Positions 13,735 to 26,612 of a stretch of DNA of 64,000 nt are shown piece by piece. The notes under the pieces are model-generated. The model made no database searches. It had not been told where the DNA came from and saw only the letters and a program-made list of their open reading frames with translations. Origin of the DNA: an uncultured virus (IMG/VR IMGVR_UViG_3300047491_000541) (lineage: Duplodnaviria; Heunggongvirae; Uroviricota; Caudoviricetes); IMG/VR virus record IMGVR_UViG_3300047491_000541. One strand, written 5' to 3'. The position numbers were made by a program, and so were the translations under genes. Within the stretch, counting starts at the first letter, position 1. The number at the start of each line of letters is the position of its first letter.

Positions 13735-13775
13735 CTCCCTGTTTTTTACCTCTTAACTACTAACCTCACACCCAT

Positions 13776-13801
13776 ACATTACCGGAATACGCCCGAAATA
13801 A
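13776..13801 (-). promoter_or_regulatory. conserved phage promoter-like motif
   Basis: TTATTT-N12-GGTAATGT. Confidence 0.7.
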
Positions 13802-13811
13802 GGAAAGAGCT

Positions 13812-14273: not shown

Positions 14274-14287
14274 AACTTTCCCCCTTA

Positions 14288-15211
14288 TCAGCTTGTTGCG
14301 TTATTCCAGCGAACAGAACCATTTCTGATGTCCTGAATGTGATCATCAAATCGCTTCCCCAATCCTTTAGGCAAGTCAACCTGTCCGATCTGCTTTACGA
14401 CCTTGACCGATCCACACCAATACCAATATGGATAGGCAGACGGACTATCAAGAATTTGAATCGAATTCAAGACTTGACTCTTCAATTTTTCAGAGCCGCA
14501 AGACCTGTCCTCTATCGCAAGAAACTTTCGACCCTTTTCAGTTCCGAAGTCTAAGATGGCAACGAAGTTTCCATTCGACTTCATATAAATGCCTCCGATT
14601 TCCAAGTCCTTCTCTGGAATTGGACCCATACCACGGAGAGTCTGCGAGTCTGCAATCTCTTTAAAGAGTGTTGAGCCGACACGAACAATACGAACCTGAC
14701 TCCCCATCACGACCCATATAAACTCCGCCGTGAAATATGTCCCTACTCCCTGCGGACCATTCTTGTTCTCGATGGCTCCCTCAAGAAGACATTCAGTCAC
14801 CACGTCCTCACGCAAGTCCACCAGCCAACCCTGTGGAGTCAGAACCTTGTAGACTACTCCGCCCTCTCCACGACTTTCGATCCCGACCCACCGCAAGTCC
14901 GTAAACTCCGAATTGACAAACTCATTCGTATCAAAAAGCTTTGCCTTGCCTCCGTATTGTGACTCAGAAGCCCATTTACCAGCCGACGACTTGAAGGCAT
15001 CACTGTTGCTTGGAACGACAAAGGCAGCCCTAGCCGTAAACTTCGAGAACTTGGGAGTCTCCCTTGGAATAACACTGGAAGAGCTACTCTTAATATAGGC
15101 AATCATCCGTTTTGGAATGCGACCTTTCCGGCATCGAACAACCTCCACTCCTTCGACTTCGGCCTCTGAGTCCGCTTTTGATAACGCTTCAAGCACTTCA
15201 TTGACTTTCAA
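14288..15211 (-). CDS. hypothetical protein
   Basis: 307-aa ORF, TTG start after GGGAGG. Confidence 0.7.
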   Translation of the reverse strand: MKVNEVLEALSKADSEAEVEGVEVVRCRKGRIPKRMIAYIKSSSSSVIPRETPKFSKFTARAAFVVPSNSDAFKSSAGKWASESQYGGKAKLFDTNEFVNSEFTDLRWVGIESRGEGGVVYKVLTPQGWLVDLREDVVTECLLEGAIENKNGPQGVGTYFTAEFIWVVMGSQVRIVRVGSTLFKEIADSQTLRGMGPIPEKDLEIGGIYMKSNGNFVAILDFGTEKGRKFLAIEDRSCGSEKLKSQVLNSIQILDSPSAYPYWYWCGSVKVVKQIGQVDLPKGLGKRFDDHIQDIRNGSVRWNNATS

Positions 15212-15331
15212 TATAAAACCCTCCCATCAGAACGAGCCGCATCTACCTTCCGCTGACGATCGCGACTGCGACCCCGCCAAGAAGACCCAACTCCATTTTC
15301 GTTTCATCTACTGCCTTCTTATCGGTTAGGG

Positions 15332-15685
15332 TCACTTGGTTTCGATTTCACCAGTTGTCCAGTCAATAACCACAATGCCGTGCTTTTCGAGAACAGCATT
15401 ATGGTAAAGCGCGTCGCCTTCGGTGCTGAGTTTGTTGCCTTCGGCGCGAAGTCTGCGACCTTCGGCGAGGAGTGTGTTGCCTTTGGTGATGAGGTTGCAG
15501 ATTTCGTCGAAGTGCTTGTCGCCTTCGTCGAAGTGCTTGTTGCCTTCAGCGAGAAGCTTGTTGCCTTCGACGAGAAGCGCGTCGCCTTCGACGCGGAGAT
15601 TGTCTCCTTTGGCGATGAGCGCGTTGCCAAAGTCGTGGAGCTTGTTTCGTGTTTCCCATGAGTCTTGAATTGGTTCGTGTTTCAT
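15332..15685 (-). CDS. heptad-repeat array protein 1
   Basis: 117 aa, family termini. Confidence 0.85.
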   Translation of the reverse strand: MKHEPIQDSWETRNKLHDFGNALIAKGDNLRVEGDALLVEGNKLLAEGNKHFDEGDKHFDEICNLITKGNTLLAEGRRLRAEGNKLSTEGDALYHNAVLEKHGIVVIDWTTGEIETK

Positions 15686-15717
15686 ACTACCTTCTTATCG
15701 GTTGGGTTCAGTTTGGT

Positions 15718-16284
15718 TCACTTGGTTTCGATTCCACCAGTTGTCCAGTCAATGACCGCGTCAGGACCGTGTTTTTCAATAACAGCATCACGGTAGAGAT
15801 TGTCGCCTTTTGCAATGAGCCCGTAGCCGTTGGCGTGGAGCGCGTTGCCTTTGGCAATGAGCCCGTAGCCTTTGGCGGTGAGCGCGTCGCCTTTGGCGAG
15901 GAGCACGTAGCCTTTGGCGGTGAGCTCGTCACCTTTGACAAGGAGCTTGCAACCTTTGGTAATGAGCCCGTAGCCTTTGGCAAGGAGCCTGTGACCTTTG
16001 GCAATGAGCTTATCGCCTTCGGCGTAGTGGGTGTTATTTTCGTCGATGAGCTTATCGCCTTCGGCACGAAGCTTGTTGCCTTCGGCACAGAGCTTGTAGC
16101 CTTCGGAGCGGAACTCGTCGCCTTCGGAGCGGAGCTCGTCGCCTTCGGAGCTTAATTTGTTTCCTTCGACGTAGTGGTTGCTGCTTTCATCGATGAGCTT
16201 GTCTCCTTCAACGCGGAGCCTGTTTCCTTCGACGTGTAATTCGTTGCGTGTTTTCCATGAGTCTTGAATCGTTCCGTGTTTCAT
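15718..16284 (-). CDS. heptad-repeat array protein 2
   Basis: 188 aa, family termini. Confidence 0.85.
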   Translation of the reverse strand: MKHGTIQDSWKTRNELHVEGNRLRVEGDKLIDESSNHYVEGNKLSSEGDELRSEGDEFRSEGYKLCAEGNKLRAEGDKLIDENNTHYAEGDKLIAKGHRLLAKGYGLITKGCKLLVKGDELTAKGYVLLAKGDALTAKGYGLIAKGNALHANGYGLIAKGDNLYRDAVIEKHGPDAVIDWTTGGIETK

Positions 16285-16316
16285 ACTGCCTTCTTATCGG
16301 TTGGGGCCAGTTGGAG

Positions 16317-16610
16317 TCACTTGGTTTCAATTTCACCTGTTGTCCAGTCAATGACCGCGTCAGGGCCGTGTTTTACGAGAACGGCATTGCGGTAGAGCCT
16401 GTAGCCTTTGGCGTGGAGCGTTTCGCTTTTGGCGAGGAGTCTGTAACCTTCATCGATGAGCGCGTTGCTTTTGGCAAGGAGCCTGTCGCCTTCGGAGAGG
16501 AGCCTGCAACCTTCGGTGCGAAGTCTGTTGCCCTTGGCATAGAGCTTGTCACCTTTGGCGCGGAGCTTGTTGCGTGTTTCCCATGCGTATTGAATCGGTT
16601 CGTGTCTCAT
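16317..16610 (-). CDS. heptad-repeat array protein 3
   Basis: 97 aa from MRHEP, family termini. Confidence 0.85.
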   Translation of the reverse strand: MRHEPIQYAWETRNKLRAKGDKLYAKGNRLRTEGCRLLSEGDRLLAKSNALIDEGYRLLAKSETLHAKGYRLYRNAVLVKHGPDAVIDWTTGEIETK

Positions 16611-16624
16611 CTGCTGTCTCCTTA

Positions 16625-17107
16625 TCACTTGGTTTCGATTTCACCAGTTACCCAATCGATAATCGCATCAGAACCGTGCTTTGCGTGAACGGCATCGCAG
16701 TAGAGCACGTCGCCTTCAGCGCGGTGACTGCATGCCTTTGCGCGGAGTGCATTACCTTCGGCGAGGTGTCTGCGACCTTCGGCGTGGAGTCTGTGGCCTT
16801 CGGCGTGAAGGCTGCGGCTTTTTGCAGCGAGCAATTGGCCTTTAGCGAGAAGTCTGCTGCCTTCGACACGGAGTCTACGACCTCCGACGCTGGGATTATC
16901 GCCTTCGACGTAGTGGCTGCGGATTTCGACGAATCGCTCGTCGGCTTCAGTCCTGAGCTTATTGGATTCATCGGTTAGCCGGCTGCCTTCGACGAGGATT
17001 TTGTTGGCCGCGTCGAAGTGCTTGTTGGATTCAGCGCAGAGCCTACTAGCCTCGGCGTGTAATTCGCTGCGTCTTTCCCATGCGTCTTTGATCGGTTCGT
17101 ATTTCAT
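16625..17107 (-). CDS. heptad-repeat array protein 4
   Basis: 160 aa, family termini. Confidence 0.85.
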   Translation of the reverse strand: MKYEPIKDAWERRSELHAEASRLCAESNKHFDAANKILVEGSRLTDESNKLRTEADERFVEIRSHYVEGDNPSVGGRRLRVEGSRLLAKGQLLAAKSRSLHAEGHRLHAEGRRHLAEGNALRAKACSHRAEGDVLYCDAVHAKHGSDAIIDWVTGEIETK

Positions 17108-17129
17108 AACGTCTCCTTATCAGTTGGGG

Positions 17130-17654
17130 TCACTTGGTTTCGATTTCACCGGTTGTCCAGTTGATAACCACGTCAGGACCGTGCTTTGCGTGAACGGCAC
17201 AGGTATAAAGTACCTGCCCTTCGGCACGGAGCTTAGTACCCTCGGCGTAGAGCGCGTCGCTCTCAGCGCATAGCCTGTTGCCCTCGGCGCGGAGATTGCG
17301 GCCTTTGGCGCGGAACTTGTCGCCCTCGGCAATGAGCTTGTCGCCCTCGGCGCGTAGCTTGCCGCCCTCGGCGAGGAGCCTGTTGCCCTCGGAGTGGAGC
17401 TTGGTACCTTCGGCACGGAGCTTAGTACCCTCGGCACAGAGCTTGCTGCCCTCTGCGTAGAGCCTGTTGCCCTCGGAGTGGAGCTTGGTGCCCTCGGCGC
17501 GGAGTTTGTCGCCCTTGGCATAGAGCTTGCTGCCCTCTGCGTAGAGCCTGTCGCCTTCGACGTGGGGTCTGTGAAATTCAGCAACGAGCTTGCGGCTTTT
17601 GGCGAGTAGTTCGTTGCGTCTTTCCCACGCATCTTGAATTGGTCCGTGTTTCAT
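17130..17654 (-). CDS. heptad-repeat array protein 5
   Basis: 174 aa, family termini. Confidence 0.85.
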   Translation of the reverse strand: MKHGPIQDAWERRNELLAKSRKLVAEFHRPHVEGDRLYAEGSKLYAKGDKLRAEGTKLHSEGNRLYAEGSKLCAEGTKLRAEGTKLHSEGNRLLAEGGKLRAEGDKLIAEGDKFRAKGRNLRAEGNRLCAESDALYAEGTKLRAEGQVLYTCAVHAKHGPDVVINWTTGEIETK

Positions 17655-17674
17655 GGCGTCTCCTTATCAGCTAG

Positions 17675-17968
17675 TCACTTGGTTTCGATTTCACCGGTTA
17701 TCCAGTCGATACCCACATCAGGGCCGTACTTTGCGAGAGCAGCACTACGATAAAGCCTGTCACCTTCGGCGCGGAACCCGCTACCTTCGGCGCGGAGCCT
17801 GCTACCTTCGGCGAAGTGTGCGTCGCCTTTGGCAAGGAGCCTGTTGCCCTCGGCACGGAGTCCGCAACCTTTGGCAAGGAGCTCATCGCCCTCGGCGCTG
17901 TGCTTGTCACCTTCGGCGTGTAATTCGTTGCGTGTTTTCCATATGTCTTGAATTTGCCCGTGCTTCAT
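17675..17968 (-). CDS. heptad-repeat array protein 6
   Basis: 97 aa, family termini. Confidence 0.85.
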   Translation of the reverse strand: MKHGQIQDIWKTRNELHAEGDKHSAEGDELLAKGCGLRAEGNRLLAKGDAHFAEGSRLRAEGSGFRAEGDRLYRSAALAKYGPDVGIDWITGEIETK

Positions 17969-18000
17969 GCCGTCTCCTTATCGGTTGAGTCCAGTTAGGG

Positions 18001-18483
18001 TCACTTGGTTTCAATTTCGCCAGTTATCCAGTTGATACTAGACTCAGGGCCGTACTTTGCGAGAACGGCATCGCGATAAAGCTTGCCGCCTTCGCCAATG
18101 CACTTGTTTGCTTCAACGATGAGCACGTCGCTTTTGGCGAGAAGCGCGGTGCCTTCGGCGCGGCGTTTGTAGCCTTCGGCGCGGAGTCTGCTACCTTCAG
18201 CGAGGAGATTGCAACCTTCGACGAGGAACTTGTCGCTTTCGGCACGGAGCCCTCCACCCTCGTCGATGAGACTGCACCTTCTGGCGGTGAGCACGTCGCT
18301 TTTTGCGATGAGTGCATCGCCTTCGGAGCTGAGCTTGTTGCCTTCGGCGAGGTACTCGTCGCTTTCATCGATAAGCCTCTCGCCTTCGGCGCGGGGTCCG
18401 TGAAGTTCAGCAACGAGCTTGCGGCTTTTGGCGAGTAGTTCGTTGCGTGTTTTCCATGCGTCTTGAATTGGTCCATGTTTCAT
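18001..18483 (-). CDS. heptad-repeat array protein 7
   Basis: 160 aa, family termini. Confidence 0.85.
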   Translation of the reverse strand: MKHGPIQDAWKTRNELLAKSRKLVAELHGPRAEGERLIDESDEYLAEGNKLSSEGDALIAKSDVLTARRCSLIDEGGGLRAESDKFLVEGCNLLAEGSRLRAEGYKRRAEGTALLAKSDVLIVEANKCIGEGGKLYRDAVLAKYGPESSINWITGEIETK

Positions 18484-18505
18484 ACTGTCTCCTTATCACT
18501 TGGGT

Positions 18506-18736
18506 TTAATTGGTTTCGATTCCACCAGTTGCCCAGTTGATAACCACGTCAGGACCGTGCTTTTCGAGAACAGCATCGCGGTAGAGATTGTTTCCTGCGG
18601 CGCGGAGTCTGCGGCCTTTGGCGTGAAGCGCGTCGCCTTCAGCGCAGAGTCTGCTGCCTTCGGCGAGGAGCTTGTCGCTTTCGGCGTGTACTTCGATGCG
18701 TGTTTTCCATGCGTCTTGAATTGGTTCGTGTTTCAT
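18506..18736 (-). CDS. heptad-repeat array protein 8 (shortest)
   Basis: 76 aa, family termini. Confidence 0.85.
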   Translation of the reverse strand: MKHEPIQDAWKTRIEVHAESDKLLAEGSRLCAEGDALHAKGRRLRAAGNNLYRDAVLEKHGPDVVINWATGGIETN

Positions 18737-18750
18737 CTACTGTCTCCTTG

Positions 18751-19320
18751 TCAGTTGGTTTCGATTTCACCGGTTGCCTAGTCGGTACTGGATTCAGTGG
18801 CCATGCTCTGCAACAAGAAAGCATCGCGGTAAAGCGCGTCACCTCTGGCGAGGAGTTTTTCTCCGTCAGCGCGGAGTCTGCTACCTTCAGCGTGAAGGCT
18901 GCTACCTTCGGTAAGGAGCCTGTCGCCTTCGGCGCGGAGTTTGCTACCTTCAGCACGGAGTCTGCTACCTTCGGTGTGAAGGCCACAACCTTTGACGAGG
19001 AGAGCATTGCCTTTGGCGTAGCGATTGCAGATTTCGGCGAAGTACTTGTTGGCTTCGTCGAAGCACTTGCCGCCTTCAGTGCTGAGTTTGTTGGCTTCGG
19101 CGCGGAGCCTACAACCTTCGGCGAGGTACTCGTTGCTTTCATCGATAAGCCTCTCGCCTTCGGCGAGGAGTCTGCGACCTTCGACGTGAAGGCTGCGGCT
19201 TTTGGCGAGGAGTACGTCGCCTTCGGTGTGGAGCACGTCACCTTTGGTGACGAGCGCGTTTCCTTCGGCGTATACCTCGTTTCGTATTTTCCACGCGTCT
19301 TGAATTGGTCCGTGTTTCAT
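18751..19320 (-). pseudogene. heptad-repeat array protein 9 with damaged C-terminus
   Basis: C-cap scrambled (AFLLQSMATESSTD); conserved Trp codon is TAG; in-frame ATGEIETN follows. Confidence 0.7.
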
Positions 19321-19352
19321 GGTGTCTCCTTATCGGTTGGGGCCAGTTGGAG

Positions 19353-19877
19353 TCACTTGGTTTCGATTTCGCCAATTGCCCAGTCGATGACTGCGTCAGG
19401 GCCGTGTTTTGCACGAACGGCGCAGGTGTAAAGTGCGCGTCCCTCGGCGCGGAGCTTGTCGCCCTTGGCGTATAGCTTGTTGCCCTTGGCATGGAGCTTG
19501 CTACCCTCGGAGTGGAGCTTGCTACCCTCGGAGTGAAGCTTGCTACCCTCGGAGTGAAGCTTGCCACCCTCGGCGTGGAGCCTGCCGCTTTCGGCGAGGA
19601 GCGTGTCACCTCTGATGAGGAGCTTATCTCCGTCAGCGCGGAGCGCGCTACCCTCGGAGTGGAGCTTGCCACCCTCTGCGTAGAGCCTGTCGCCCTCGGC
19701 GAGGAGCCTATCGCCTTCGGCATATAGCCTATCGCCTTCGGCGTGAAGCTTGGTACCTTCGGCGCGGAGCTTGCTGCCCTCGGCGTATAGCCTGCTGCCC
19801 TCTGCGTAGAGCCTGTCGCCTTCAGAGCGGAGCTTGGTGCGTGCTGCCCACGCTTCTTGAATCGGTTCGTGTTTCAT
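19353..19877 (-). CDS. heptad-repeat array protein 10
   Basis: 174 aa, perfect SEGSKLH tandem runs. Confidence 0.85.
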   Translation of the reverse strand: MKHEPIQEAWAARTKLRSEGDRLYAEGSRLYAEGSKLRAEGTKLHAEGDRLYAEGDRLLAEGDRLYAEGGKLHSEGSALRADGDKLLIRGDTLLAESGRLHAEGGKLHSEGSKLHSEGSKLHSEGSKLHAKGNKLYAKGDKLRAEGRALYTCAVRAKHGPDAVIDWAIGEIETK

Positions 19878-19911
19878 CTACTGCCTTCTTATCGGTTAGG
19901 GTCAGTTGGGT

Positions 19912-20379
19912 TCAGTTGGTTTCGATTTCACCGGTTATCCAGTCGATACTGGACTCAGGGCCGTACTTTACAATAACGGCATTGCGGTAGAGCTTGTTGC
20001 CTTCGTCGTGGAGTCTGCTACCCTCAGCGCGGAGTCTACGACCTTCACCGTAGTGTCTGCGACCTTCGGCGAAGTGCGTGCCGGCTTCGGCGCTGCGCCT
20101 GCTGGATTCGTCGCGGAGTCTGCTACCCTCGGAGCGGAGTCTGCTACCCTCGGCTGTGAGTGCGGGCTTATCGACCTCGGCACAGAGCTTGTTGCCCTCG
20201 GCGCGGAGCTTGTTGCCTTCGTCGTGGAGCCTGCCGGCTTCGGCGTAGAGCCTGTCACCTTCGGCGAAGCTTTTGCTGATTTCGGCGAAGTGCTTGTCGG
20301 CTTCGACGCTGAGTTTGTCGCCTTCGACGTGTAGCTCGTTGCGTGTTTTCCATGCGTCTTGAATCGGTTCGTGTTTCAT
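19912..20379 (-). CDS. heptad-repeat array protein 11
   Basis: 155 aa, family termini. Confidence 0.85.
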   Translation of the reverse strand: MKHEPIQDAWKTRNELHVEGDKLSVEADKHFAEISKSFAEGDRLYAEAGRLHDEGNKLRAEGNKLCAEVDKPALTAEGSRLRSEGSRLRDESSRRSAEAGTHFAEGRRHYGEGRRLRAEGSRLHDEGNKLYRNAVIVKYGPESSIDWITGEIETN

Positions 20380-20401
20380 GGAGACTTCTTATCAGTTAGA
20401 T

Positions 20402-20716
20402 TCAGTTGGTTTCGATTTCGCCGGTTTCCCAATCAATGACCGCAGTAGGCCCATACTTTGCGAGAACGGCAGCGCGGTAGAAATCGCTGCCTTCGACGCG
20501 GAATCGGCAACCTAAGGCGATAAGCTTGTCGCCTTCGACGAGGAGTTTGTCACCTTCGACGCGAAGCTTATCGCCTTCGACACGGAGATTGTAGCCTTCG
20601 AAGCGGAGATCATCTCCTTCAGCACGTAGCTTACCACCCGCTGCGCTGAGATTGTAGCCTGTGAAGTAGAGCTTATTGCGTGTTTTCCATGCGTCTTGAA
20701 TTGGTTCGTGTTTCAT
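20402..20716 (-). CDS. heptad-repeat array protein 12
   Basis: 104 aa, family termini. Confidence 0.85.
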   Translation of the reverse strand: MKHEPIQDAWKTRNKLYFTGYNLSAAGGKLRAEGDDLRFEGYNLRVEGDKLRVEGDKLLVEGDKLIALGCRFRVEGSDFYRAAVLAKYGPTAVIDWETGEIETN

Positions 20717-20750
20717 CTACTGCCTTCTTATAAGTTGAGTTCAGGGGTTG

Positions 20751-21212
20751 TCAGTTGGTTTCGATTTCGCCAGTTTTCCAATCAATAAATTGATTGGGGC
20801 CGTGTTTTTCAATAACAGCATCACGGTAGAGCTGGTTTCCTTTGGCGTAGAGCTTGACGTTTTTTGCGATGAGCGCGTCGCCTTTGACAAAGAGCTTGCA
20901 GCCTTTGGCGATGGACTTGTAGCCTTTGGCAAGGAGCCCGTAGCCTTTGACAAGGAGCTTGGCGCTTTCGGCACGGAGTCTATTGCCTTCGTCGCGGAGT
21001 CTGTTGCCTTCGGCGAGGTACTCGTTGCTTTCATCGATAAGCCTCTCGCCTTCGGCGAGGAACCTGTCGCCTTCGGCGTGTAGCTTGTAGCCTTCGGCAA
21101 TGAGCTCGTTGCTTTCGGCGAAGAGCTTGACGCTTTCTGCGCTGCGCTTGACGCCTTCGGCGAGTAATTCGTTGCGTCTTTCCCATGCATCTTGAATCGT
21201 TCCGTGTTTCAT
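20751..21212 (-). CDS. heptad-repeat array protein 13
   Basis: 153 aa, family termini. Confidence 0.85.
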   Translation of the reverse strand: MKHGTIQDAWERRNELLAEGVKRSAESVKLFAESNELIAEGYKLHAEGDRFLAEGERLIDESNEYLAEGNRLRDEGNRLRAESAKLLVKGYGLLAKGYKSIAKGCKLFVKGDALIAKNVKLYAKGNQLYRDAVIEKHGPNQFIDWKTGEIETN

Positions 21213-21224
21213 AACGTCTCCCTA

Positions 21225-21770
21225 TCACTTGGTTTCGATTTCACCGGTTGTCCAGTCAATGACCGCATCAGGACCGTGCTTTGCGTGAACAGCATCACGG
21301 TAGAGATTGTCGCCTTTTGCAAAGAGCCCGTAGCCTTTGGCGTAGAGCGCGTCGCCTTTGGCGAGGAGCCCGTAACCTTCGGCGAGGAGCTCGTCGCCTT
21401 TGACAAGGAGCTTGCTACCTTGGGCAACGAGTCTGTAGCCTTTGGCAAGGAGCCTGTAACCTTTGGCAATGCGCTTGTCACCCTCGGCGTAGAGCTTATA
21501 GCCTTTGGCGCGGCGCTCGTAGCCTTCGGCACGAAGCTTGTAGCCTTCGGCACGAAGCTTGTTGCCTTCGGCGCGGAATTTGTTTCCTTCTACGTGGAGC
21601 TTGTTTCCTTCGTCATAGAGCCTGTCTCCTTCGGCGCGAAGCCTGTTGCCTTCAGCGTAGTGGTTGTTGCTTTCATCGAAGAGCTTGTCGCCTTCGACGC
21701 GGAGTTTGTTCCCTTCGGCGTGTAATTCGCTTCGTGTTTCCCATGCGTCTTGAATTGATTCGTGTTTCAT
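21225..21770 (-). CDS. heptad-repeat array protein 14
   Basis: 181 aa, family termini. Confidence 0.85.
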   Translation of the reverse strand: MKHESIQDAWETRSELHAEGNKLRVEGDKLFDESNNHYAEGNRLRAEGDRLYDEGNKLHVEGNKFRAEGNKLRAEGYKLRAEGYERRAKGYKLYAEGDKRIAKGYRLLAKGYRLVAQGSKLLVKGDELLAEGYGLLAKGDALYAKGYGLFAKGDNLYRDAVHAKHGPDAVIDWTTGEIETK

Positions 21771-21779
21771 GGTGTCTCC

Positions 21780-22001
21780 TTATCGGTTCGGCGGCAGCGA
21801 TGCTCCCATGCAGTTTGGGCACACGTATCGCCAAGAATAGGTCTCGCTCGGTGAAAACAGGCCGTGATACCCGCAACCCAGACAGGTCATGCGTCGGCGA
21901 CGTGACCGCCAAACAAGCCCATCGACGGGACGGCTCATAGCGCGTCCTTCTGGGCAAAGGTTCTTCCCCGGTCCTGCGTTTGGTGCCTGTCCGATGTTCA
22001 T
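21780..22001 (-). CDS. small CxxC..CxxC zinc-ribbon-like protein (cassette-borne)
   Basis: CLGC..CPNC; GGAGGG RBS inside the attC loop. Confidence 0.55.
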   Translation of the reverse strand: MNIGQAPNAGPGKNLCPEGRAMSRPVDGLVWRSRRRRMTCLGCGYHGLFSPSETYSWRYVCPNCMGASLPPNR

Positions 22002-22034
22002 TTCCCCTCCATGAGCCGCCCGTCATGGGCAGCG
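21787..22034 (+). mobile_element. attC gene cassette inserted at an array junction
   Basis: Begins after G of GTTCGGC (21786) and ends at G of GTTAGAT (22034); removing it restores the normal junction. Confidence 0.8.
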
Positions 22035-22040
22035 TTAGAT
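21908..22040 (+). repeat. attC-like recombination site (133 bp)
   Basis: R'' GCCAAAC; arms GCCCATCGACGGGACGGCTCAT / ATGAGCCGCCCGTCATGGGC with two extrahelical bases; R' GTTAGAT. Confidence 0.85.
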
Positions 22041-22502
22041 TCACTTGGTTTCGATTTCACCAGTTTCCCAGTTGATAACCACATTAAGGCCATGTTTGCA
22101 GATCGCGGCATTGTGATAAAACCTGTCGCCTATGGCACGGATCCTGCTACCTTCGTCGAGGAATCTACGACCCTCGGTATAGAGAGTGTCGCTTTTGGCG
22201 CGAAGCCCATCGCCTTCGGCACGGAGCCTAATGCCTTCAGCGCGAAGCTTGACGCCTTCAGCGTGAAGGCTGTGGCCTTTGGTTCTGAGCTCGTCGCCTT
22301 CGGTTAGGAGTCTACGACCTTCGATGCCGAGCTCGGCGCCTCTGGCGATGAGCGCGTCGCCTTCGCCGTAGAGCCTATTGGCTTCGGCGTAGTGGGTGTT
22401 ATTTTCATCGATGAGCTTGTCGCCTTCTACGCGAAGCTTGTCGCCTTCGGCGTGGAATCCGTTGCGAATTTCCCACGCATCTTGAATCGTCTCGTGTTTC
22501 AT
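22041..22502 (-). CDS. heptad-repeat array protein 15
   Basis: 153 aa, family termini. Confidence 0.85.
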   Translation of the reverse strand: MKHETIQDAWEIRNGFHAEGDKLRVEGDKLIDENNTHYAEANRLYGEGDALIARGAELGIEGRRLLTEGDELRTKGHSLHAEGVKLRAEGIRLRAEGDGLRAKSDTLYTEGRRFLDEGSRIRAIGDRFYHNAAICKHGLNVVINWETGEIETK

Positions 22503-22530
22503 GGTGTCTCCTTATTGGTTGAGTTCGGGG

Positions 22531-22845
22531 TTACTTGGTTTCAATTTCACCTGTTGTCCAGTCGATGACTGCATCAGGGCCATACTTTGCGAGAACGGCA
22601 GCGCGGTAGAAATCGTTGCCTTCGACGCGGATCTTGTGGCCCTCGGCGATGAGCTTGGCGCCCTCGGCACGATGCTCGTCGCCTTTGGCGAGGAGCTTGT
22701 CGCCCTCGGCACGACGCTCGTCGCTTTTGGCGAGGAGCTTGTCGCCCTTGGCACAGCGCTTGAAACCCTCGTCGCGGAGCTTGACGCCCGCGGCGTAGAA
22801 TTCGTTGCGTGCTTCCCATGCATCTTTGATCGGTTCGTGTTTCAT
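22531..22845 (-). CDS. heptad-repeat array protein 16
   Basis: 104 aa, family termini. Confidence 0.85.
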   Translation of the reverse strand: MKHEPIKDAWEARNEFYAAGVKLRDEGFKRCAKGDKLLAKSDERRAEGDKLLAKGDEHRAEGAKLIAEGHKIRVEGNDFYRAAVLAKYGPDAVIDWTTGEIETK

Positions 22846-22867
22846 AACGTCTCCTTATCAGTTGGGT

Positions 22868-23434
22868 TCACTTGGTTTCGATTTCACCGGTTGTCCAGTC
22901 AATGACTACGTCATGGCCGTACTTTGCGTGAACAGCATCGCTGTAGAGATTGTCGCCTCTGGCGCGAAGCCTGTTTCCTTCGGCGAGGAGTTCGTTGCTT
23001 TCATCGATGAGCTTGTAGCCTTCAGCGTTGAGCTTGTCGCTTTCGGCGTGGAGCTTATTCCCTTCAGCGTGAAGTCTGTAACCTTCAGCGTGGAGGTTGA
23101 CGCCTTCGGCGATGCGCTTGTTGCTTTCATCGATTAGCGCGTCGCTTTTGGCGCGAATCACGTCGCCTTCGACGCGGAGCGCGTTGCATTTGGCGCGTAG
23201 TCTGCTACCTTCGGTGAGGAGTCTGCAACCTTCGGCAAGAAGCGCGTCTCCTCTGACGAGGAGCTTGTTTCCTTCGTCATAGAGCCTGTCTCCTTCGGCG
23301 CGAAGCCTGTTGCCTTCAGCGTAGTGGTTGTTGCTTTCATCGAAGAGCTTGTCGCCTTCGACGTGGAGCTTGTCGCTTTCGGCGCGTAATTCGCTGTATG
23401 TTTCCCATGCGTCTTTGATCGGTTCGTGCTTCAT
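22868..23434 (-). CDS. heptad-repeat array protein 17
   Basis: 188 aa, family termini. Confidence 0.85.
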   Translation of the reverse strand: MKHEPIKDAWETYSELRAESDKLHVEGDKLFDESNNHYAEGNRLRAEGDRLYDEGNKLLVRGDALLAEGCRLLTEGSRLRAKCNALRVEGDVIRAKSDALIDESNKRIAEGVNLHAEGYRLHAEGNKLHAESDKLNAEGYKLIDESNELLAEGNRLRARGDNLYSDAVHAKYGHDVVIDWTTGEIETK

Positions 23435-23456
23435 GGTGTCTCCTTATCGGTTGAGT

Positions 23457-23729
23457 TCAGTTGGTTTCGATTTCACCAGTTTCCCAGTTGATACTGGATT
23501 CAGGTCCGTGTTTTTCAATAACGGCATCGCGGTAGAGCTTGTCTCCGTCAGCGCGGTGTCTGCGACCTTCGGCATAAAAGCTGCTGCTTTTGGCGAGGAG
23601 ATTGTCGCCTTCGGCGTGAAGTCTGTTACCTTCGGTGACGAGCTTGTTGCCTTCGGCGCTGCGCTCGTCGCCTTTGGCGTGTAATTCGTTGCGTGTTTCC
23701 CATGCGTCTTGAATTTGCCCGTGTTTCAT
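23457..23729 (-). CDS. heptad-repeat array protein 18
   Basis: 90 aa, family termini. Confidence 0.85.
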   Translation of the reverse strand: MKHGQIQDAWETRNELHAKGDERSAEGNKLVTEGNRLHAEGDNLLAKSSSFYAEGRRHRADGDKLYRDAVIEKHGPESSINWETGEIETN

Positions 23730-23740
23730 CTACTGTCTCC

Positions 23741-24112
23741 TTATCGGTTTGGATTCAATTGGACTCCGATTTCGCCGGTTGACCAATCGATGACTGCATC
23801 AGGGCCGTGTTTTTCAATAACAGCACAGGTATAAAGTACCCGCCCTTCGGCGTGGAGCTTAGTGCCCTCGGCGTAGAGCGCGTCGCTCTCAGCTCGGAGT
23901 TTGTCACCCTCAGCGCGGCGTTTGTCCCCCTCGGCGCGAAGCTTGTCGTCCTTGACACAGAGCTTGGTACCCTTGGCACGGAGTGCGTCGCCTTCGGCGT
24001 GGAGCTTGTCACCCTCGACACAGCGCTTGAAGCCCTCGGCGCGGAGCTTGTCGCCCTCGGCGCAGCGCTTGTTGCGAATTTCCCACGCATCTTTAATCGT
24101 CTCGTGTTTCAT
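23741..24112 (-). CDS. heptad-repeat array protein 19
   Basis: 123 aa; C-terminus runs into the junction (GEIGVQLNPNR). Confidence 0.8.
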   Translation of the reverse strand: MKHETIKDAWEIRNKRCAEGDKLRAEGFKRCVEGDKLHAEGDALRAKGTKLCVKDDKLRAEGDKRRAEGDKLRAESDALYAEGTKLHAEGRVLYTCAVIEKHGPDAVIDWSTGEIGVQLNPNR

Positions 24113-24140
24113 GGTGTCTCCTTATTGGTTGAGTTCGAGG

Positions 24141-24455
24141 TCACTTGGCTTCGATTTCGCCAGTTGCCCAGTTGATACTAGACTCAGGGCCGTACTTTGC
24201 AAGAACAGCATGACGGTAGAGCCCGTCGCTTATGTCGTGGAGTCTGCAACCTTCTGCGAGGAACTTGTCGCTTCTATCGAGGAATCTGCGACCTTCGGCG
24301 GTGAGCTCGTCGCTTTTGGCGCGGAGTGCGTCGCCTTTGGCGAGGAGCTTGCATCCTTCGACGTAGAGCCTGTCACCTTCAGTGCTATGCCTGTCGCCTT
24401 CAGCGCGGAGCTTGTTGCGTGTTTCCCATGCGTCTTGAATTTGCCCGTGTTTCAT
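24141..24455 (-). CDS. heptad-repeat array protein 20
   Basis: 104 aa, family termini. Confidence 0.85.
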   Translation of the reverse strand: MKHGQIQDAWETRNKLRAEGDRHSTEGDRLYVEGCKLLAKGDALRAKSDELTAEGRRFLDRSDKFLAEGCRLHDISDGLYRHAVLAKYGPESSINWATGEIEAK

Positions 24456-24469
24456 CTACTGTCTCCTTA

Positions 24470-25045
24470 TCAGTTAGTCACTTTGGTTTCGATTTCGCCA
24501 GTTGCCCAGTTGATACTGGATTCAGGGCCGTACTTCGCACAAACAGCATCGCGGTAGAGATTGTCGCATCCGACGAGAAGCCTGTTTCCGTCAGCGAGGA
24601 GTCTGCGACCTTCGGCATGGAGCGTGTCGCTTTTGGCGATAAGCGCGTCGCCCGCAGCGCGGAGCCTGTTACCTTCGGCGAGGAGCTTGTCACCTTCAGT
24701 GCGGAGTCTGCGACCTTCGGCGAAGTACTTGTTGGCTTCATCGATGAACACGTCGCTTTTGGCGCGAAGCGCGTCGCCCGCAGTGCTGAGCCTGTCGCCT
24801 TCGGCGCGGAGTCTGCGACCTTCGCCGTTAAGTTTGCAACCTTCGGCAAGAAGCGCGTCTCCTCTGACGAGGAACTTGTCGCCCTCGGCAATGAGCTTGT
24901 CGCCTTCGGCGCGAAGCCTGTTGCCTTCAGCGTAGTGGTTGTTGCTTTCGACGAGAAGCGCGTCGCCTTCGACGCTGAGCTTGTTGCCTTCGGCGTGTAA
25001 TTCGCTGCGTCTTTCCCATGCGTCTTGAATTTGCCCGTGTTTCAT
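24470..25045 (-). CDS. heptad-repeat array protein 21
   Basis: 191 aa (188 + VTN extension). Confidence 0.85.
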   Translation of the reverse strand: MKHGQIQDAWERRSELHAEGNKLSVEGDALLVESNNHYAEGNRLRAEGDKLIAEGDKFLVRGDALLAEGCKLNGEGRRLRAEGDRLSTAGDALRAKSDVFIDEANKYFAEGRRLRTEGDKLLAEGNRLRAAGDALIAKSDTLHAEGRRLLADGNRLLVGCDNLYRDAVCAKYGPESSINWATGEIETKVTN

Positions 25046-25069
25046 CTACTGTCTCCTTATCAGTTAGAT

Positions 25070-25363
25070 TCACTTGGTTTCGATTTCGCCAGTTGCCCAG
25101 TTGATAACCGCATTAGGGCCATACTTTTCGAGAGCAGCTTTGCGGTAGAGCTTGCTTCCTTCGTCGCGGATCGCGTCGCCTCTGGCAATAAGCCTATCCC
25201 CGTCAGCACGGAGCTCGTCGCTTTTGGCGAGGAGCTCATAGCTTTTGGCGAGGAGCTTGTCGCCTTCGAAGCTGATCTTGTTGCCTTCAACACAGAGCTT
25301 GTTCCCTTTGGCGCGGAGCTTGCTGCGTGCTGCCCATGCTTCTGTGATTGGTCCATGTTTCAT
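25070..25363 (-). CDS. heptad-repeat array protein 22
   Basis: 97 aa from MKHGP. Confidence 0.85.
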   Translation of the reverse strand: MKHGPITEAWAARSKLRAKGNKLCVEGNKISFEGDKLLAKSYELLAKSDELRADGDRLIARGDAIRDEGSKLYRKAALEKYGPNAVINWATGEIETK

Positions 25364-25364
25364 C

Positions 25365-25667
25365 TTATGATACCCTCCCATTAGAACGAGCCGCATCTAC
25401 CTTCTGACGATCACGAAGCCACTGCTCGTGTTCCTCTGCAGCCTTCCGTTTACGCTCCTCAGAGGCCAGCAGAGCCTCACGGTCATACTCTTGCACTGGC
25501 ATTGGAGACCCTACCCGACACGTCCGCCAGTGATCCGCCCAATTCTTCTGACGCATCGTCAAACCACAGGCACACTTGACGACGAGCTCGTCCAAGCGAT
25601 TCTGCTCCAGAACACTCTTTCGATTATCCATAAACAACCCTTTTCTCGGAATCTCCCTCACATCCAT
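25365..25667 (-). CDS. hypothetical protein (CxC..H..C possible Zn site)
   Basis: ORF directly after a promoter motif; KCACG..DHWRTC. Confidence 0.55.
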   Translation of the reverse strand: MDVREIPRKGLFMDNRKSVLEQNRLDELVVKCACGLTMRQKNWADHWRTCRVGSPMPVQEYDREALLASEERKRKAAEEHEQWLRDRQKVDAARSNGRVS

Positions 25668-25693
25668 ACATTACCGGAAATCGGTTAGAATAA
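25668..25693 (-). promoter_or_regulatory. conserved phage promoter-like motif upstream of the heptad array
   Basis: TTATTC-N12-GGTAATGT. Confidence 0.7.
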
Positions 25694-25952
25694 GGAAGAA
25701 ATTTATAGATAGACGAGATTGCGTAACCCGTTGGAACATAACACAATACGACTCAAAACTATGCCGACAGCACAATCTCCTGCCGGATAAGCACCGCCTC
25801 CATCCGACGATGACAGGCTTCAATTTGCTCATCCAGGTTGCCTTTCCGTCTAGCCTCATCCTGCTCGTCCTGTAATCGGAGAATTCGCCTATCGATCCGA
25901 GCGATAATGGCATCAACCTTTTTTTGATCGTTCATATAATACCTCTCAAAAG

Positions 25953-26249
25953 TCAATCCTGAATCATATTCCATCGTCCACGTTCAACGCCCTTGGTGTC
26001 GAACATCACAACGTCGAATCGTGCCTTTCCAGATAAATCTGGCGGCTTACTGACGAGAGCGATCTGCCCAATTGTGTAATCGGGCGTTCCGTCTTGTTTG
26101 TTCATCCCGTCTCCGACTTTCCAGTGAGGGTCTTCAACGTCAACATCCGGGACATCAGGACAACCATCTCCATCTTCAACAGGCTCCTCCAGCGGTGGTA
26201 TGGCGAATCCAATAGGCGGGCTTTCAAACTCTTCTTTAAGAAGTTTCAT
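25953..26249 (-). CDS. hypothetical protein
   Basis: 98 aa, AAGGAG RBS. Confidence 0.6.
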   Translation of the reverse strand: MKLLKEEFESPPIGFAIPPLEEPVEDGDGCPDVPDVDVEDPHWKVGDGMNKQDGTPDYTIGQIALVSKPPDLSGKARFDVVMFDTKGVERGRWNMIQD

Positions 26250-26258
26250 GCTTCTCCT

Positions 26259-26612
26259 TCACTGATGTTTCTTCAGAATTTCATCGAGCTTGCTCTGCAC
26301 GACTGCCAGATGCCCACCACTCTTAGTCCCATGCTCGATGCGACAGTTGACCTCAGTCCTGAGACGCAGCACATCCTCACGGAGACTATCGTAAGTAGAC
26401 TTTTTGTTGCCACGATCCGCATATTCTTTGAAAATGCGTAGCCAGTGGTCGCTTCCCTCACCAATGGGAGTCTGCGACCAAGTGAAGCCACACAGAATAG
26501 CCATGCTGAAGGAGATGACTAAACGATCAGCCTGACCAGGATCTAGGTTTTTCAAAAGTTTACTGCGAAGAGGCTCTTCGGCTGACTCAAACCACACTTT
26601 AATTGTTTTCAT
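26259..26612 (-). CDS. hypothetical protein
   Basis: 117 aa, AAGGAG RBS. Confidence 0.65.
   Translation of the reverse strand: MKTIKVWFESAEEPLRSKLLKNLDPGQADRLVISFSMAILCGFTWSQTPIGEGSDHWLRIFKEYADRGNKKSTYDSLREDVLRLRTEVNCRIEHGTKSGGHLAVVQSKLDEILKKHQ

What the first reader, a model, noticed from the sequence alone, without database searches (positions are those of the whole stretch)
15332..25363. 10-kb tandem array of 22 paralogous genes with fixed caps and a variable count of 7-aa repeats
Seen: each gene has its own RBS, an N-cap MKH(E/G)xIQDAW and a C-cap LYRxAVxxK(H/Y)GPxxxI(D/N)WxTGEIET(K/N), around a 21-nt repeat (consensus GCC GAA GGC NNC AAG CTC NNC; AEGxKLx). Lengths are mostly 76+7n aa (76, 90, 97, 104, 153, 160, 174, 181, 188). 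Repeat blocks are shared patchwise between non-adjacent genes: LAKGYGLI/LLVKGDEL in genes 2, 13 and 14, and DESNNHYAEGNRL-like blocks in 14, 17 and 21. This points to recombination between copies. One promoter motif (25668) lies upstream of the array. Inference: a length- and surface-diversified library of coiled-coil or helical-hairpin proteins, e.g. molecular rulers, decoys or inhibitors of host defence proteins. I recognise no named family.
Basis: partly seen in the sequence, partly recalled or inferred. Interest (0 to 1): 0.88.

Follow-up and report, generated by a model that had tools for sequence, protein, structure and literature searches.

The report
Phage array of expandable helical-hairpin genes
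A large uncultured freshwater phage carries 22 side-by-side copies (plus one stray copy) of a small, unnamed protein whose two conserved ends flank a rod of 7-residue units that differs in length and surface from copy to copy; it looks like a diversified panel of binding proteins, but its targets are unknown.

Summary
There are 22 co-oriented minus-strand genes at 15332-25363, each with its own RBS. All have the same N-cap and C-cap around in-register heptads x-A-E-G-x-K-L, encoded by a 21-nt repeat.

The family has no name in Pfam, NCBIfam, annotated PHROGs or the PDB, but it is widespread and confined to phages. It occurs in at least 52 IMG/VR contigs, usually as 1-5 copies, and none was found in prokaryote genomes. 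A sister phage has only 2 copies in the same slot, so this array is a lineage-specific expansion.

AlphaFold2 with an alignment gives a helical hairpin with a short C-terminal beta-hairpin (pLDDT 94.7, pTM 0.80, all five models above pLDDT 91). Gly falls every seventh residue.

The caps are under purifying selection (dN/dS 0.24-0.34). Heptad positions 1 and 5 evolve at dN/dS about 1.1-1.3. The copies are mosaics of one another.

The array lies in a roughly 12-kb unit behind a recurring phage promoter-like motif, among ligase, methyltransferase and other accessory genes. Annotated neighbours of homologues elsewhere are replication, recombination or anti-restriction genes, and none is structural.

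My best reading is an early, non-structural panel of host-factor binders for take-over or counter-defence. That function is inferred, not shown. Gene order across the array is not confirmed by long reads.

The parts
15332..15685 (-). g1, 117 aa family member (C-cap one residue short)
15718..16284 (-). g2, 188 aa; first 11 variable heptads carry E at position 3, 9 of the last 10 carry K
16317..16610 (-). g3, 97 aa
16625..17107 (-). g4, 160 aa; DNPSVGG loop-like stretch near the midpoint
17130..17654 (-). g5, 174 aa; folded without an alignment as one long helix plus a C-terminal beta-hairpin
17675..17968 (-). g6, 97 aa; folded with an alignment as a helical hairpin (helices 4-39 and 42-81) plus a C-terminal beta-hairpin
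18001..18483 (-). g7, 160 aa
18506..18736 (-). g8, 76 aa, the shortest copy (5 variable heptads)
18778..19320 (-). g9, 180 aa; C-cap damaged by a compensated frameshift and TGG->TAG at the conserved Trp; probably decaying
19353..19877 (-). g10, 174 aa
19912..20379 (-). g11, 155 aa; 2-aa insertion (VDKPALT) breaks the heptad register near the midpoint
20402..20716 (-). g12, 104 aa
20751..21212 (-). g13, 153 aa
21225..21770 (-). g14, 181 aa; shares 104 nt exactly with g17
21771..22040 (-). 270-nt gap inside the array; holds a 73-aa CxxC...CxxC ORF (21780-22001); contigs of public runs branch to other sequence at 21908 and 22036
22041..22502 (-). g15, 153 aa
22531..22845 (-). g16, 104 aa
22868..23434 (-). 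g17, 188 aa
23457..23729 (-). g18, 90 aa
23741..24112 (-). g19, 123 aa; normal stop lost, C-terminus reads on into the next RBS region
24141..24455 (-). g20, 104 aa
24470..25045 (-). g21, 191 aa (188 plus 3 extra residues)
25070..25363 (-). g22, 97 aa; first array gene in the direction of transcription
25365..25667 (-). 100-aa ORF with no family, heading the unit between the motif and the array
25666..25684 (-). phage promoter-like motif CCGATTTCCGGTAATGTAT; the other copies are at 13774-13792, 40027-40045 and 54450-54468
14288..15211 (-). 307-aa ORF just downstream of the array in the same unit (phrog_12487, unknown function); no counterpart among the ORFs of sister contig L010
42480..43103 (-). 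g23, orphan 23rd copy, 207 aa; conserved Trp replaced by Arg, stop lost, Cys-rich tail of about 65 aa

Best explanation
SHOWN. This is a real array of 22 paralogous genes, plus one orphan copy 17 kb away, in a large uncultured freshwater phage. Each gene encodes a small protein with no Pfam or NCBIfam match, from an unnamed family found only in phage sequence. The architecture is a conserved N-cap (MKHxxIQDAWxxRxxL), then 5 to 21 heptads x1-A2-E3-G4-x5-K6-L7, then a conserved C-cap (LYRDAVxxKxGPxxxIxWxTGEIETK).

PREDICTED. The chain folds back on itself as an antiparallel two-helix hairpin, followed by a short C-terminal beta-hairpin.

INFERRED from the residue numbering of that model:
- The two caps meet at the open end of the hairpin and act as a clasp.
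- Gly faces Gly across the two arms (small-X6-small, or Alacoil-like, packing).
- Gain or loss of any whole heptad keeps both the clasp and the Gly-Gly register. This would explain the 76+7n length rule and would make rod length freely adjustable, roughly 4 to 12 nm.

SHOWN. The 21-nt DNA repeat and the exchange of blocks between copies generate variants. Selection keeps the caps constant while positions 1 and 5 (and partly 6) vary. A sister phage has only 2 copies at the same locus.

INFERRED function. The array is transcribed as part of one roughly 12-kb unit from a phage-specific promoter-like motif. It sits in the part of the genome that holds DNA-metabolism, DNA-modification and other accessory genes. 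The proteins are most likely early, non-structural binders (inhibitors or decoys) of host factors. The panel would be an expanded repertoire for host take-over or counter-defence.
For: Anatomy. 301 heptads are in register. Position 4 is Gly in 238 of 301, Ser in 41 and Ala in 10. Position 7 is Leu in 236 of 301.

Fold: AlphaFold2 with the 22-sequence alignment A2 gives helices 4-39 and 42-81 plus a C-terminal beta-hairpin. pLDDT is 94.7, pTM is 0.80, and the five models have pLDDT 91-95. The best structural matches are all helical hairpins, for example 5los_A (Z 9.3, rmsd 2.5 over 81 residues), Snf7, PspA and a lengthened ROP variant.

Sequence support for pairing of the N-half with the C-half: K/R at heptad position 3 occurs in 58 of 150 C-half heptads against 23 of 141 N-half heptads (Fisher p = 2e-5). 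In g2, the first 11 variable heptads carry E and 9 of the last 10 carry K.

Selection: dN/dS is 0.24 for the N-cap and 0.34 for the C-cap, against 1.28 for heptad position 1 and 1.07 for position 5.

Codon use: the array's codon use is not the phage's. Position-7 Leu is CTC in 177 of 236 and never CTG or TTG, whereas other genes use CTG 30%, TTG 22% and CTC 18%. Arg is CGY at position 1 (79 of 82) but AGR at position 6 (77 of 79). The heptads therefore descend from one 21-nt unit.

Mosaicism: pairwise identity of N-caps and of C-caps is uncorrelated (r = 0.05), and g14 and g17 share 104 nt exactly.

Expansion: contig L010 has flanking genes 71-89% identical in protein and 78-87% in DNA. Between the same two flanking genes it holds only 2 family genes.

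Family range:
- The profile search gave 2857 hits at E <= 1e-3. Of the 150 listed, 66 are 330 aa or shorter.
- 57 of 60 IMG/VR loci, from 52 contigs, hold family genes.
- 29 of the 30 nearest ESM Atlas clusters are unnamed. The four clusters shown are 92-100% viral.
- No relative was found in genomes of 185,579 prokaryote species.

Context in the window: NAD ligase, Dam and N6/N4 methyltransferases, a gp30.3/NADAR-like protein, CobS/CobT-like proteins and sugar-modification genes.

Context elsewhere: of 100 neighbours of homologues in 26 loci, 32 matched a PHROG. These were 22 DNA/RNA metabolism, 2 DNA methyltransferase, 1 Lar-like restriction alleviation and 7 of unknown function. None was head, tail or lysis.

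Operon: the motif at 25666 lies directly upstream, and the next copy on the same strand is at 13774.
Against: No experiment or expression data bear on function.

dN/dS of 1.1-1.3 at the variable positions fits relaxed constraint as well as diversifying selection. The estimate is crude, because it uses Nei-Gojobori on heptads whose phylogeny is unknown.

Folded without an alignment, g5 came out as one continuous helix, confident in only 2 of 5 models. The hairpin could therefore equally be an antiparallel dimer. The oligomer predictor was not available, and I could not inspect model coordinates, so the clasp and the Gly-Gly contacts are deduced from residue numbering.

The E/K asymmetry is driven mainly by g2, g13, g14 and g23, which share blocks by descent and are not independent.

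Irregular heptads are not significantly enriched at the midpoint (p = 0.10).

Three copies are damaged or altered (g9, g19, g23), so some decay is under way.

68 of the 100 neighbours have no PHROG match. For the single copy in the complete 209-kb phage (L002), the neighbours tell nothing.

About 22 of the 60 IMG/VR loci lie at contig ends. Arrays may therefore be under-assembled elsewhere, and 22 copies may be less exceptional than it looks.
Confidence: 0.5

Rival explanations
1. Gam-like role. The family could be a nuclease inhibitor or an accessory protein of the phage recombination module, protecting DNA ends or recombination intermediates. The array would then target several host nucleases.
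For: In 3 of 26 homologue loci (L057, L058, L066) the family gene lies just upstream of a RecT/Bet-like annealing protein and an exonuclease. From recalled knowledge, that is the position gam holds in lambda's gam-bet-exo order. Other neighbours are NinB/Orf, RusA/RuvC resolvases, helicases and ParB-like nucleases. In the window the unit lies next to the ligase module.
Against: The proteins match no Pfam family at gathering score, Gam included. Net charge ranges from -11 to +6, with most copies within 5 of zero, so this is not an acidic DNA mimic. Only 3 of 26 loci show the arrangement. Nothing explains why a nuclease inhibitor would need 4-12 nm length variants.
Confidence: 0.15
2. Virion-associated proteins: decoration or whisker fibres, or internal or ejected proteins. 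The C-cap would act as an oligomerisation nucleus, like the foldon of T4 fibritin.
For: Folded without an alignment, g5 is one long helix ending in a small beta-hairpin. From recalled knowledge, that outline resembles a coiled coil plus foldon. Weak PHROG hits to 'virion structural protein' (phrog_23208, E = 3e-5 at best) and to scaffolding protein come from the coiled-coil region.
Against: The alignment-based model is a hairpin in 5 of 5 models. None of the 32 annotated neighbours across 26 loci is structural. The window context is ligase, methyltransferases and accessory genes. Neither the sequence search nor the fold searches of the PDB gave a clear match.
Confidence: 0.12
3. Largely neutral or selfish amplification. 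The 21-nt repeat and tandem homology drive unequal crossing-over. Most copies would add dosage at best, and many would be drifting.
For: dN/dS is about 1 at the variable positions. Three copies are damaged or altered: g9, g19 and g23. The sister phage manages with 2 copies. A review states that large phages undergo accordion-like genome expansions (PMC13359090, passages read).
Against: The caps have dN/dS of 0.24-0.34 while synonymous divergence between copies is about 0.7. The copies are therefore old and individually constrained. 20 of 22 keep an intact C-cap and all 22 keep an RBS-like sequence. Position 1 uses a restricted residue set: R, L, H, I, Y and F dominate, with no D, E or K among 301 heptads.
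Confidence: 0.12
4. Assembly artefact. The array's length or gene order is inflated by mis-assembly of repeats, or by collapsing several strains into one contig.
For: No contig of the public runs spans the array. It breaks into about 80 pieces of 400-560 nt. Alternative joins exist at 21908-22036. About 22 of the 60 IMG/VR family loci end at contig ends.
Against: Every bin of the array is covered in three runs from two studies, with no differing letters. Summed depth in two of the three runs is 1 to about 2.5 times that of the unique flanks; in the third run some bins fall to about half. All 22 genes are distinct. The longest exact match between copies is 104 nt and the next is 55 nt, which is short enough for paired short reads to resolve.
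Confidence: 0.05
5. Targeted hypermutation. The variable codons would be written by a diversity-generating retroelement or a similar mechanism.
For: The variable codons are NNY with conserved third bases. From recalled knowledge, this superficially resembles AAC-to-NNC diversification.
Against: Pfam scans of 58 window ORFs found no reverse transcriptase. At the variable positions C or G, not A, is the commonest base, so the variation is not adenine-specific. There is not one differing letter across 13.5 kb among three runs from two studies.
Confidence: 0.01

Closest known systems
Alacoil / small-X6-small antiparallel coiled coils (e.g. ROP); name and definition recalled
   Same: A small residue falls every seventh position (Gly, Ser or Ala in 289 of 301 heptads). 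The model is an antiparallel two-helix hairpin. A lengthened ROP variant is among the structural matches (9cfs_B, Z 7.2).
   Different: The small residue is Gly rather than Ala. The fold is a single-chain hairpin flanked by conserved terminal caps. Repeat number is freely variable. There is no sequence relationship, and packing distances were not measured.
Viral multigene families expanded by tandem duplication ('genomic accordions', e.g. in poxviruses)
   Same: There is a lineage-specific expansion from 2 to 22 copies at one locus between related viruses. The array sits in an accessory region. The review passages read (PMC13359090) link such expansions to counteracting host defences.
   Different: The copies here are old (dS about 0.7) and differ in length, so this is not a recent dosage amplification. 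The scaffold is a new small hairpin. No host target is known.
Streptococcal M proteins (recalled; weak PDB hit 9mmx_C, E = 0.022)
   Same: Both are heptad-based helical rods whose repeat blocks vary in number and sequence through recombination between DNA repeats.
   Different: M proteins are long, cell-wall-anchored parallel dimers encoded by a single gene. These are 76-191 aa and carry neither a signal-peptide-like N-terminus (they begin MKHxxIQDAW) nor an LPXTG anchor motif, and they occur as 23 genes in a phage.
Lambda Gam (recalled)
   Same: Both are small helical early phage proteins. In 3 of 26 loci the family gene lies just upstream of recT/bet-like and exonuclease genes.
   Different: No sequence match. 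The proteins are not acidic. Function was not tested.
Earlier finding of this scan, e1-2101676: 'expandable alanine-tyrosine hairpin' phage proteins
   Same: That note describes small early phage proteins with a conserved head and a helical hairpin of 7-residue units, gained and lost through 21-bp repeats. This is the same architecture as found here.
   Different: The heptad differs (AAYxxAx against xAEGxKL). That finding had two genes rather than 22. Kinship was not tested, because I did not see its sequence. It is an unchecked AI note and not independent evidence.

Membership tests
Alacoil / small-X6-small antiparallel coiled coil | Small residue (Gly/Ala/Ser) every 7th position | tested here: met
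   Position 4 is Gly in 238, Ser in 41 and Ala in 10 of 301 heptads
Alacoil / small-X6-small antiparallel coiled coil | Antiparallel helix pair | tested here: inconclusive
   The alignment-based AF2 model is a hairpin in 5 of 5 models and matches hairpins. The single-sequence model of g5 is one helix. This is prediction only.
Alacoil / small-X6-small antiparallel coiled coil | Unusually close helix spacing, with the small residues at the contact | not testable with these tools
   Model coordinates could not be read. Gly-Gly register is deduced from numbering: Gly 20, 27 and 34 pair with Gly 62, 55 and 48 about a turn at residues 40-41.
Diversity-generating retroelement target | Nearby reverse transcriptase and template repeat | tested here: not met
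   Pfam scans of 58 window ORFs found no reverse transcriptase. Only this 64-kb window could be searched.
Diversity-generating retroelement target | Adenine-specific variation, and variability between samples | tested here: not met
   Base spectra at the variable positions are not centred on A. No differing letters among 3 runs.
Lambda Gam / Mu Gam | Sequence match to the family profile | tested here: not met
   No Gam family among Pfam hits at E <= 1 for 11 copies, nor at E <= 0.01 for the extended homologues
T4 fibritin-like fibre with foldon | Homology to the fibritin/foldon sequence | tested here: not met
   The profile search of PDB sequences returned 7 weak hits (best E = 0.016), none of them fibritin
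T4 fibritin-like fibre with foldon | Parallel trimer | not tested
   The complex predictor was not available
Hep_Hag / YadA-head repeats | Match to the family profile; 14-residue SHAEGxxTxAxGxx repeat | tested here: not met
   The long proteins hit by the array profile carry SHAEG repeats (4 of 5 inspected). The array proteins themselves do not match Hep_Hag at E <= 1 and are predicted helical.
WXG100 / ESAT-6 hairpins | Family profile match and a WxG motif in the loop | tested here: not met
   No Pfam hit. Only weak fold rows (3o9o_B at E = 0.94 and 3gvm_A at E = 1.4). The turn in the model is at E40-G41 with no Trp.

The most novel reading that the evidence does not exclude
Phages may carry a natural combinatorial library of rigid binding proteins. 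The scaffold would be a clasped glycine-zipper hairpin whose length is set by heptad gain and loss and whose binding stripe (positions 1 and 5) is reshuffled among copies by gene conversion. A single phage would then field some twenty binders against different host defence or house-keeping proteins. That would be a phage counterpart of a repeat-protein immune repertoire, and a ready-made design scaffold of tunable length.
Probability: 0.25. Interest if true: 0.9.

Novelty: categorically new. Interest (0 to 1): 0.72.

Why it matters
If the reading holds, an abundant and unnamed class of small early phage proteins gains both an architecture and a mode of evolution. The architecture is two conserved caps flanking a glycine-zipper hairpin. 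The mode of evolution is change by whole heptads and by exchange of blocks between copies.

This array would be the clearest case so far of a phage expanding one such scaffold into a repertoire. That makes several questions testable:
- which host proteins the copies bind;
- whether rod length matters for binding;
- whether tandem expansions of this kind are a general phage route to counter-defence.

The packing principle and the accordion principle are both familiar. What is new is the family, its modular length rule and the size of the array. Function remains unknown, and this is the main limit on the finding.

Tried and rejected
Named families: Pfam, PHROGs and NCBIfam gave only sub-threshold coiled-coil noise or PHROGs of unknown function.

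Solved structures: the sequence search of the PDB gave a best E of 0.016. Foldseek against the PDB and BFVD gave nothing at E <= 1e-3. VIA-align gave generic hairpins with Z <= 9.7, below the level that is meaningful for helical folds.

Cultured phages: no DNA or protein match for the array. The CobS-like protein found nothing. The AAA protein found only distant PBS1/AR9-type and Rhizobium phage hits.

Whole genome: none is held for this window.

Prokaryote genomes: two scans found 0 relatives among 69 and 21 candidate stretches.

DNA-level search for the exact repeat in IMG/VR: 0 matches.

RNA: no RNA holder was listed, and the one metatranscriptome laid (X4) gave no contigs on the stretch. 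This says nothing about expression.

Midpoint test: irregular heptads are not significantly centred on the midpoint (p = 0.10). They are nearly absent from the last 40% of the rod (1 of 128 heptads, against 21 of 194 in the first 60%); I have no explanation.

Other reading frames: long ORFs exist on the plus strand and in the other minus-strand frames, for example the xELxAFG and PKATSS series. These are by-products of the repeat. Only the frame reported here has the caps, the RBS sequences and the homologues.

Sigma-70 promoter at 25668: not reported by the scan.

Literature: four full-text searches found no description of the family. The terms included 'AEGDKL' and combinations of phage, tandem array, paralogous, heptad and coiled-coil.

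Earlier findings: the look-up by sequence and the look-up by place both returned nothing.

Full report
OBSERVATION

The region 15332-25363 holds 22 open reading frames on the minus strand, separated by 11-41 nt except for one 270-nt gap. Transcription runs from g22 to g1.

Every gene starts M(K/R)(H/Y) and has the N-cap. 20 of 22 end with an intact C-cap. Upstream, 17 of 22 have AGGAG or GGGAG and 5 of 22 have AAGAAG(G).

Lengths are 76-191 aa, and 17 of 22 are exactly 76+7n. The five exceptions have small changes:
- g1 has a cap one residue shorter.
- g11 has a 2-aa insertion.
- g21 has 3 extra terminal residues.
- g19 has lost its stop.
- g9 has a compensated 2+1-nt frameshift and TGG->TAG at the conserved Trp.

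Tandem Repeats Finder reports 54 rows with period 21 or multiples of it. Anchored on the C-cap, all genes fall into one heptad register, x1-A2-E3-G4-x5-K6-L7.

Counts over 301 heptads:
- Position 2 is Ala in 194.
- Position 3 is Glu in 207 and Lys in 65.
- Position 4 is Gly in 238, Ser in 41 and Ala in 10.
- Position 7 is Leu in 236.
- Positions 1 and 5 are highly variable. Position 6 is K, R, A, E, N and others.

It is 207 aa, has Arg in place of the conserved Trp, has lost its stop, and carries a Cys-rich tail.

NUCLEOTIDE-LEVEL SIGNALS

The array does not use the phage's codons. Position-7 Leu is CTC (177) or CTT (48) and never CTG or TTG. Sixteen other genes of the window use CTG 30%, TTG 22% and CTC 18%. 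Position-2 Ala is never GCG, against 32% elsewhere.

Arg is CGY at position 1 (79 of 82) but AGR at position 6 (77 of 79). Each heptad position has therefore explored the one- or two-step neighbours of its own ancestral codon. All heptads descend from one 21-nt unit.

Nei-Gojobori estimates give dN/dS of 0.24 for the N-cap (22 genes) and 0.34 for the C-cap (20 genes). Heptad positions 2, 4, 6 and 7 give 0.24-0.71, position 1 gives 1.28 and position 5 gives 1.07 (position 3 has no estimate because its synonymous sites are saturated); dS between copies is about 0.7. The copies are old, the caps are constrained, and the variable positions evolve at or slightly above the neutral rate. This is not proof of positive selection. 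Position 1 also uses a restricted residue set, with no D, E or K among 301 heptads.

The copies are mosaics. Pairwise identity of N-caps and of C-caps is uncorrelated (r = 0.05). Exact matches of 104 nt (g14/g17), 55 nt (g9/g13) and 47 nt (g14/g17/g21) lie at equal offsets in non-adjacent genes.

IS THE ASSEMBLY REAL?

Three DNA runs from two studies (lake and freshwater metagenomes) hold 95% of the array's sampled words. Laid on 13500-27000, their contigs cover all 30 bins with no differing letters. Summed depth in two of the runs is 1 to about 2.5 times that of the flanks. In the third run some bins fall to about half.

The contigs break the array into about 80 pieces of 400-560 nt, and none spans it. 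Alternative joins exist at 21908-22036, in the 270-nt gap. The gene sequences are therefore independently supported, but their order and number are not.

The longest exact repeat between copies is 104 nt, so paired short reads could resolve the array. I put an artefact at about 5%.

WHAT THE PROTEINS ARE

No Pfam, NCBIfam or annotated PHROG family matches, and no solved structure is related by sequence.

Folded without an alignment, g5 is one helix (5-158) plus a C-terminal beta-hairpin, and only 2 of 5 models are confident.

Folded with a 22-sequence alignment, g6 is a hairpin: helices 4-39 and 42-81, then a beta-hairpin. pLDDT is 94.7, pTM is 0.80, and all five models are above pLDDT 91. Fold searches return only generic hairpins, such as ESCRT-III, PspA, FadA and a lengthened ROP, with Z <= 9.7. 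This supports the geometry of the model but names no family.

From the residue numbering, Gly 20, 27 and 34 would face Gly 62, 55 and 48 about a turn at E40-G41.

If the caps meet, each added heptad shifts the pairing sum by 7 and so keeps Gly opposite Gly. This would explain why length changes only in whole heptads, and why both caps are conserved: they would form a clasp at the open end. These points are inference.

One piece of sequence evidence fits pairing of the N-half with the C-half. K/R at position 3 is enriched in C-halves (58 of 150 against 23 of 141, p = 2e-5). In g2 the first 11 variable heptads carry E and 9 of the last 10 carry K. This signal rests largely on four copies that share blocks.

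Irregular heptads are not significantly centred on the midpoint (p = 0.10). An antiparallel dimer would fit the same data, and the complex predictor was unavailable.

THE FAMILY ELSEWHERE

A word-indexed search found only the window's own proteins. That record notes a contig of 73,299 nt.

A profile search of 1.84 billion representative proteins gave 2857 hits at E <= 1e-3 and 418 at E <= 1e-10. Of the 150 listed, 66 are 330 aa or shorter and show the same cap-heptad-cap design, 25 of them by a strict two-cap pattern. The long hits are mostly SHAEG (YadA-head-like) repeat proteins, 4 of the 5 I inspected, and I regard these as spurious.

A degenerate two-heptad DNA pattern found 60 loci in 52 IMG/VR contigs, and 57 of those loci hold family genes. 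Most have one copy. A few have clusters of different lengths. One 39.6-kb contig has five copies in frames of 89, 103, 151, 168 and 179 aa. Others have three or two. A 138-kb phage has six dispersed matches, some broken, and three of them share a conserved upstream sequence.

About 22 of the 60 loci lie at contig ends, so copy numbers elsewhere are probably underestimated.

The nearest ESM Atlas clusters are unnamed (29 of 30), and the four shown are 92-100% viral. Two scans of 185,579 prokaryote species genomes found no relative.

EXPANSION

Metagenome contig L010 (11,953 nt) is a sister phage. Its flanking genes are 71-89% identical in protein and 78-87% in DNA, and they include the CobT-like and CobS-like genes. 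Between the same two flanking genes it holds only two family genes, of 73 and 110 aa. The 22-gene array is thus a lineage-specific expansion, or else L010 has contracted.

CONTEXT AND REGULATION

All genes around the array are on the minus strand. The window encodes:
- an NAD-dependent ligase;
- Dam and N6/N4 methyltransferases;
- a T4 gp30.3/NADAR-like protein;
- a cREC_REC-domain protein and a WGR-domain protein;
- CobS/CobT-like proteins and an AAA protease-like protein;
- RmlD and a dTDP-sugar isomerase-like protein;
- a family-2 glycosyltransferase.
It encodes no reverse transcriptase and no tRNA.

The 'promoter motif' at 25668 is not a sigma-70 match. It is a 19-nt motif that recurs four times on the minus strand, at 13774, 25666, 40027 and 54450, against 0.02 expected by chance. 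It is conserved at both corresponding places in L010.

One copy lies directly upstream of a 100-aa ORF and the array. The next copy follows the 153-aa gene downstream. The array therefore probably belongs to one unit of about 12 kb.

Among 100 neighbours of homologues in 26 IMG/VR loci, 32 match a PHROG. Of these, 22 are DNA/RNA metabolism (RecT/Bet, exonuclease, NinB, helicases, resolvases, ParB-like, primase, RNase H, HNH), 2 are DNA methyltransferases, 1 is Lar-like restriction alleviation and 7 are of unknown function. None is head, tail or lysis. In 3 of the 26 loci the family gene directly precedes RecT/Bet and exonuclease genes.

INTERPRETATION

Architecture, mode of evolution, expansion and phage restriction are shown. 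The clasped hairpin is predicted. Function is inferred.

I think the most likely reading (about 0.5 overall) is an early, non-structural panel of host-factor binders for take-over or counter-defence.

The rivals are:
- a Gam-like nuclease inhibitor or recombination accessory (0.15);
- virion fibres or internal proteins (0.12);
- largely neutral amplification (0.12);
- assembly inflation (0.05);
- DGR-type hypermutation (0.01), which is contradicted by the absence of a reverse transcriptase, by base spectra that are not centred on A, and by zero variation among runs.

NOVELTY

Four literature searches found no description of the family. One review supplies the accordion concept for large phages (PMC13359090, passages read).

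The architecture has therefore been met before in this scan. I could not test whether the two families are related.

The packing and accordion principles are known. The family, its length rule and an array of this size are not.

Noticed in passing
window 42480-43103 (-): An orphan 23rd family copy lies 17 kb from the array. The conserved Trp is replaced by Arg, the stop is lost, and about 65 Cys-rich residues follow the C-cap. This may be a read-through fusion with a downstream small gene.
   Followed up: partly
window 13774-13792, 25666-25684, 40027-40045, 54450-54468 (all -): A 19-nt motif (..TTCCGGTAATGTAT..) with a conserved upstream TCTTTCCTTATT box recurs 4 times against 0.02 expected by chance. 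It is conserved in sister contig L010. It is probably a phage-specific promoter that divides the region into units.
   Followed up: partly
window 21771-22040: The only large gap in the array holds a 73-aa ORF with two CxxC pairs. Contigs of the public runs branch to other sequence at 21908 and 22036, and show replaced letters at 21934-22018. This suggests a structural variant, or a segment shared with another element in the samples.
   Followed up: no
L001 8142-12858 (138-kb IMG/VR phage): A family gene with an extra C-terminal domain of about 85 aa lies between two large ORFs (601 and 827 aa) that, by my reading of their sequences and with no family search run, look like the two halves of a split DnaE-type polymerase. 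At least three of the dispersed copies in this phage share a conserved upstream sequence, and some copies carry stops.
   Followed up: partly
window 29191-34069 and 35871-36317, 48279-48740: A CobS-like AAA protein and a CobT-like VWA protein are syntenic with L010, and a WGR-domain protein lies between them. The window also holds a T4 gp30.3/NADAR-like protein and a cREC_REC (cyclic-phosphate processing receiver) domain protein. Together these look like accessory or counter-defence genes.
   Followed up: no
IMG/VR loci L018-L077: About 22 of the 60 loci with the heptad pattern lie within a few hundred bases of a contig end, and two contigs have family genes at both ends. Short-read assemblies seem to break in these genes, so copy number and length variants are probably undercounted.
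   Followed up: no
window 15332-25363, heptad rods: Irregular heptads (two or more departures from the consensus) are almost absent from the last 40% of the rods (1 of 128 heptads, against 21 of 194 in the first 60%). They cluster at relative positions 0.15-0.27 and 0.41-0.59. I have no explanation.
   Followed up: partly
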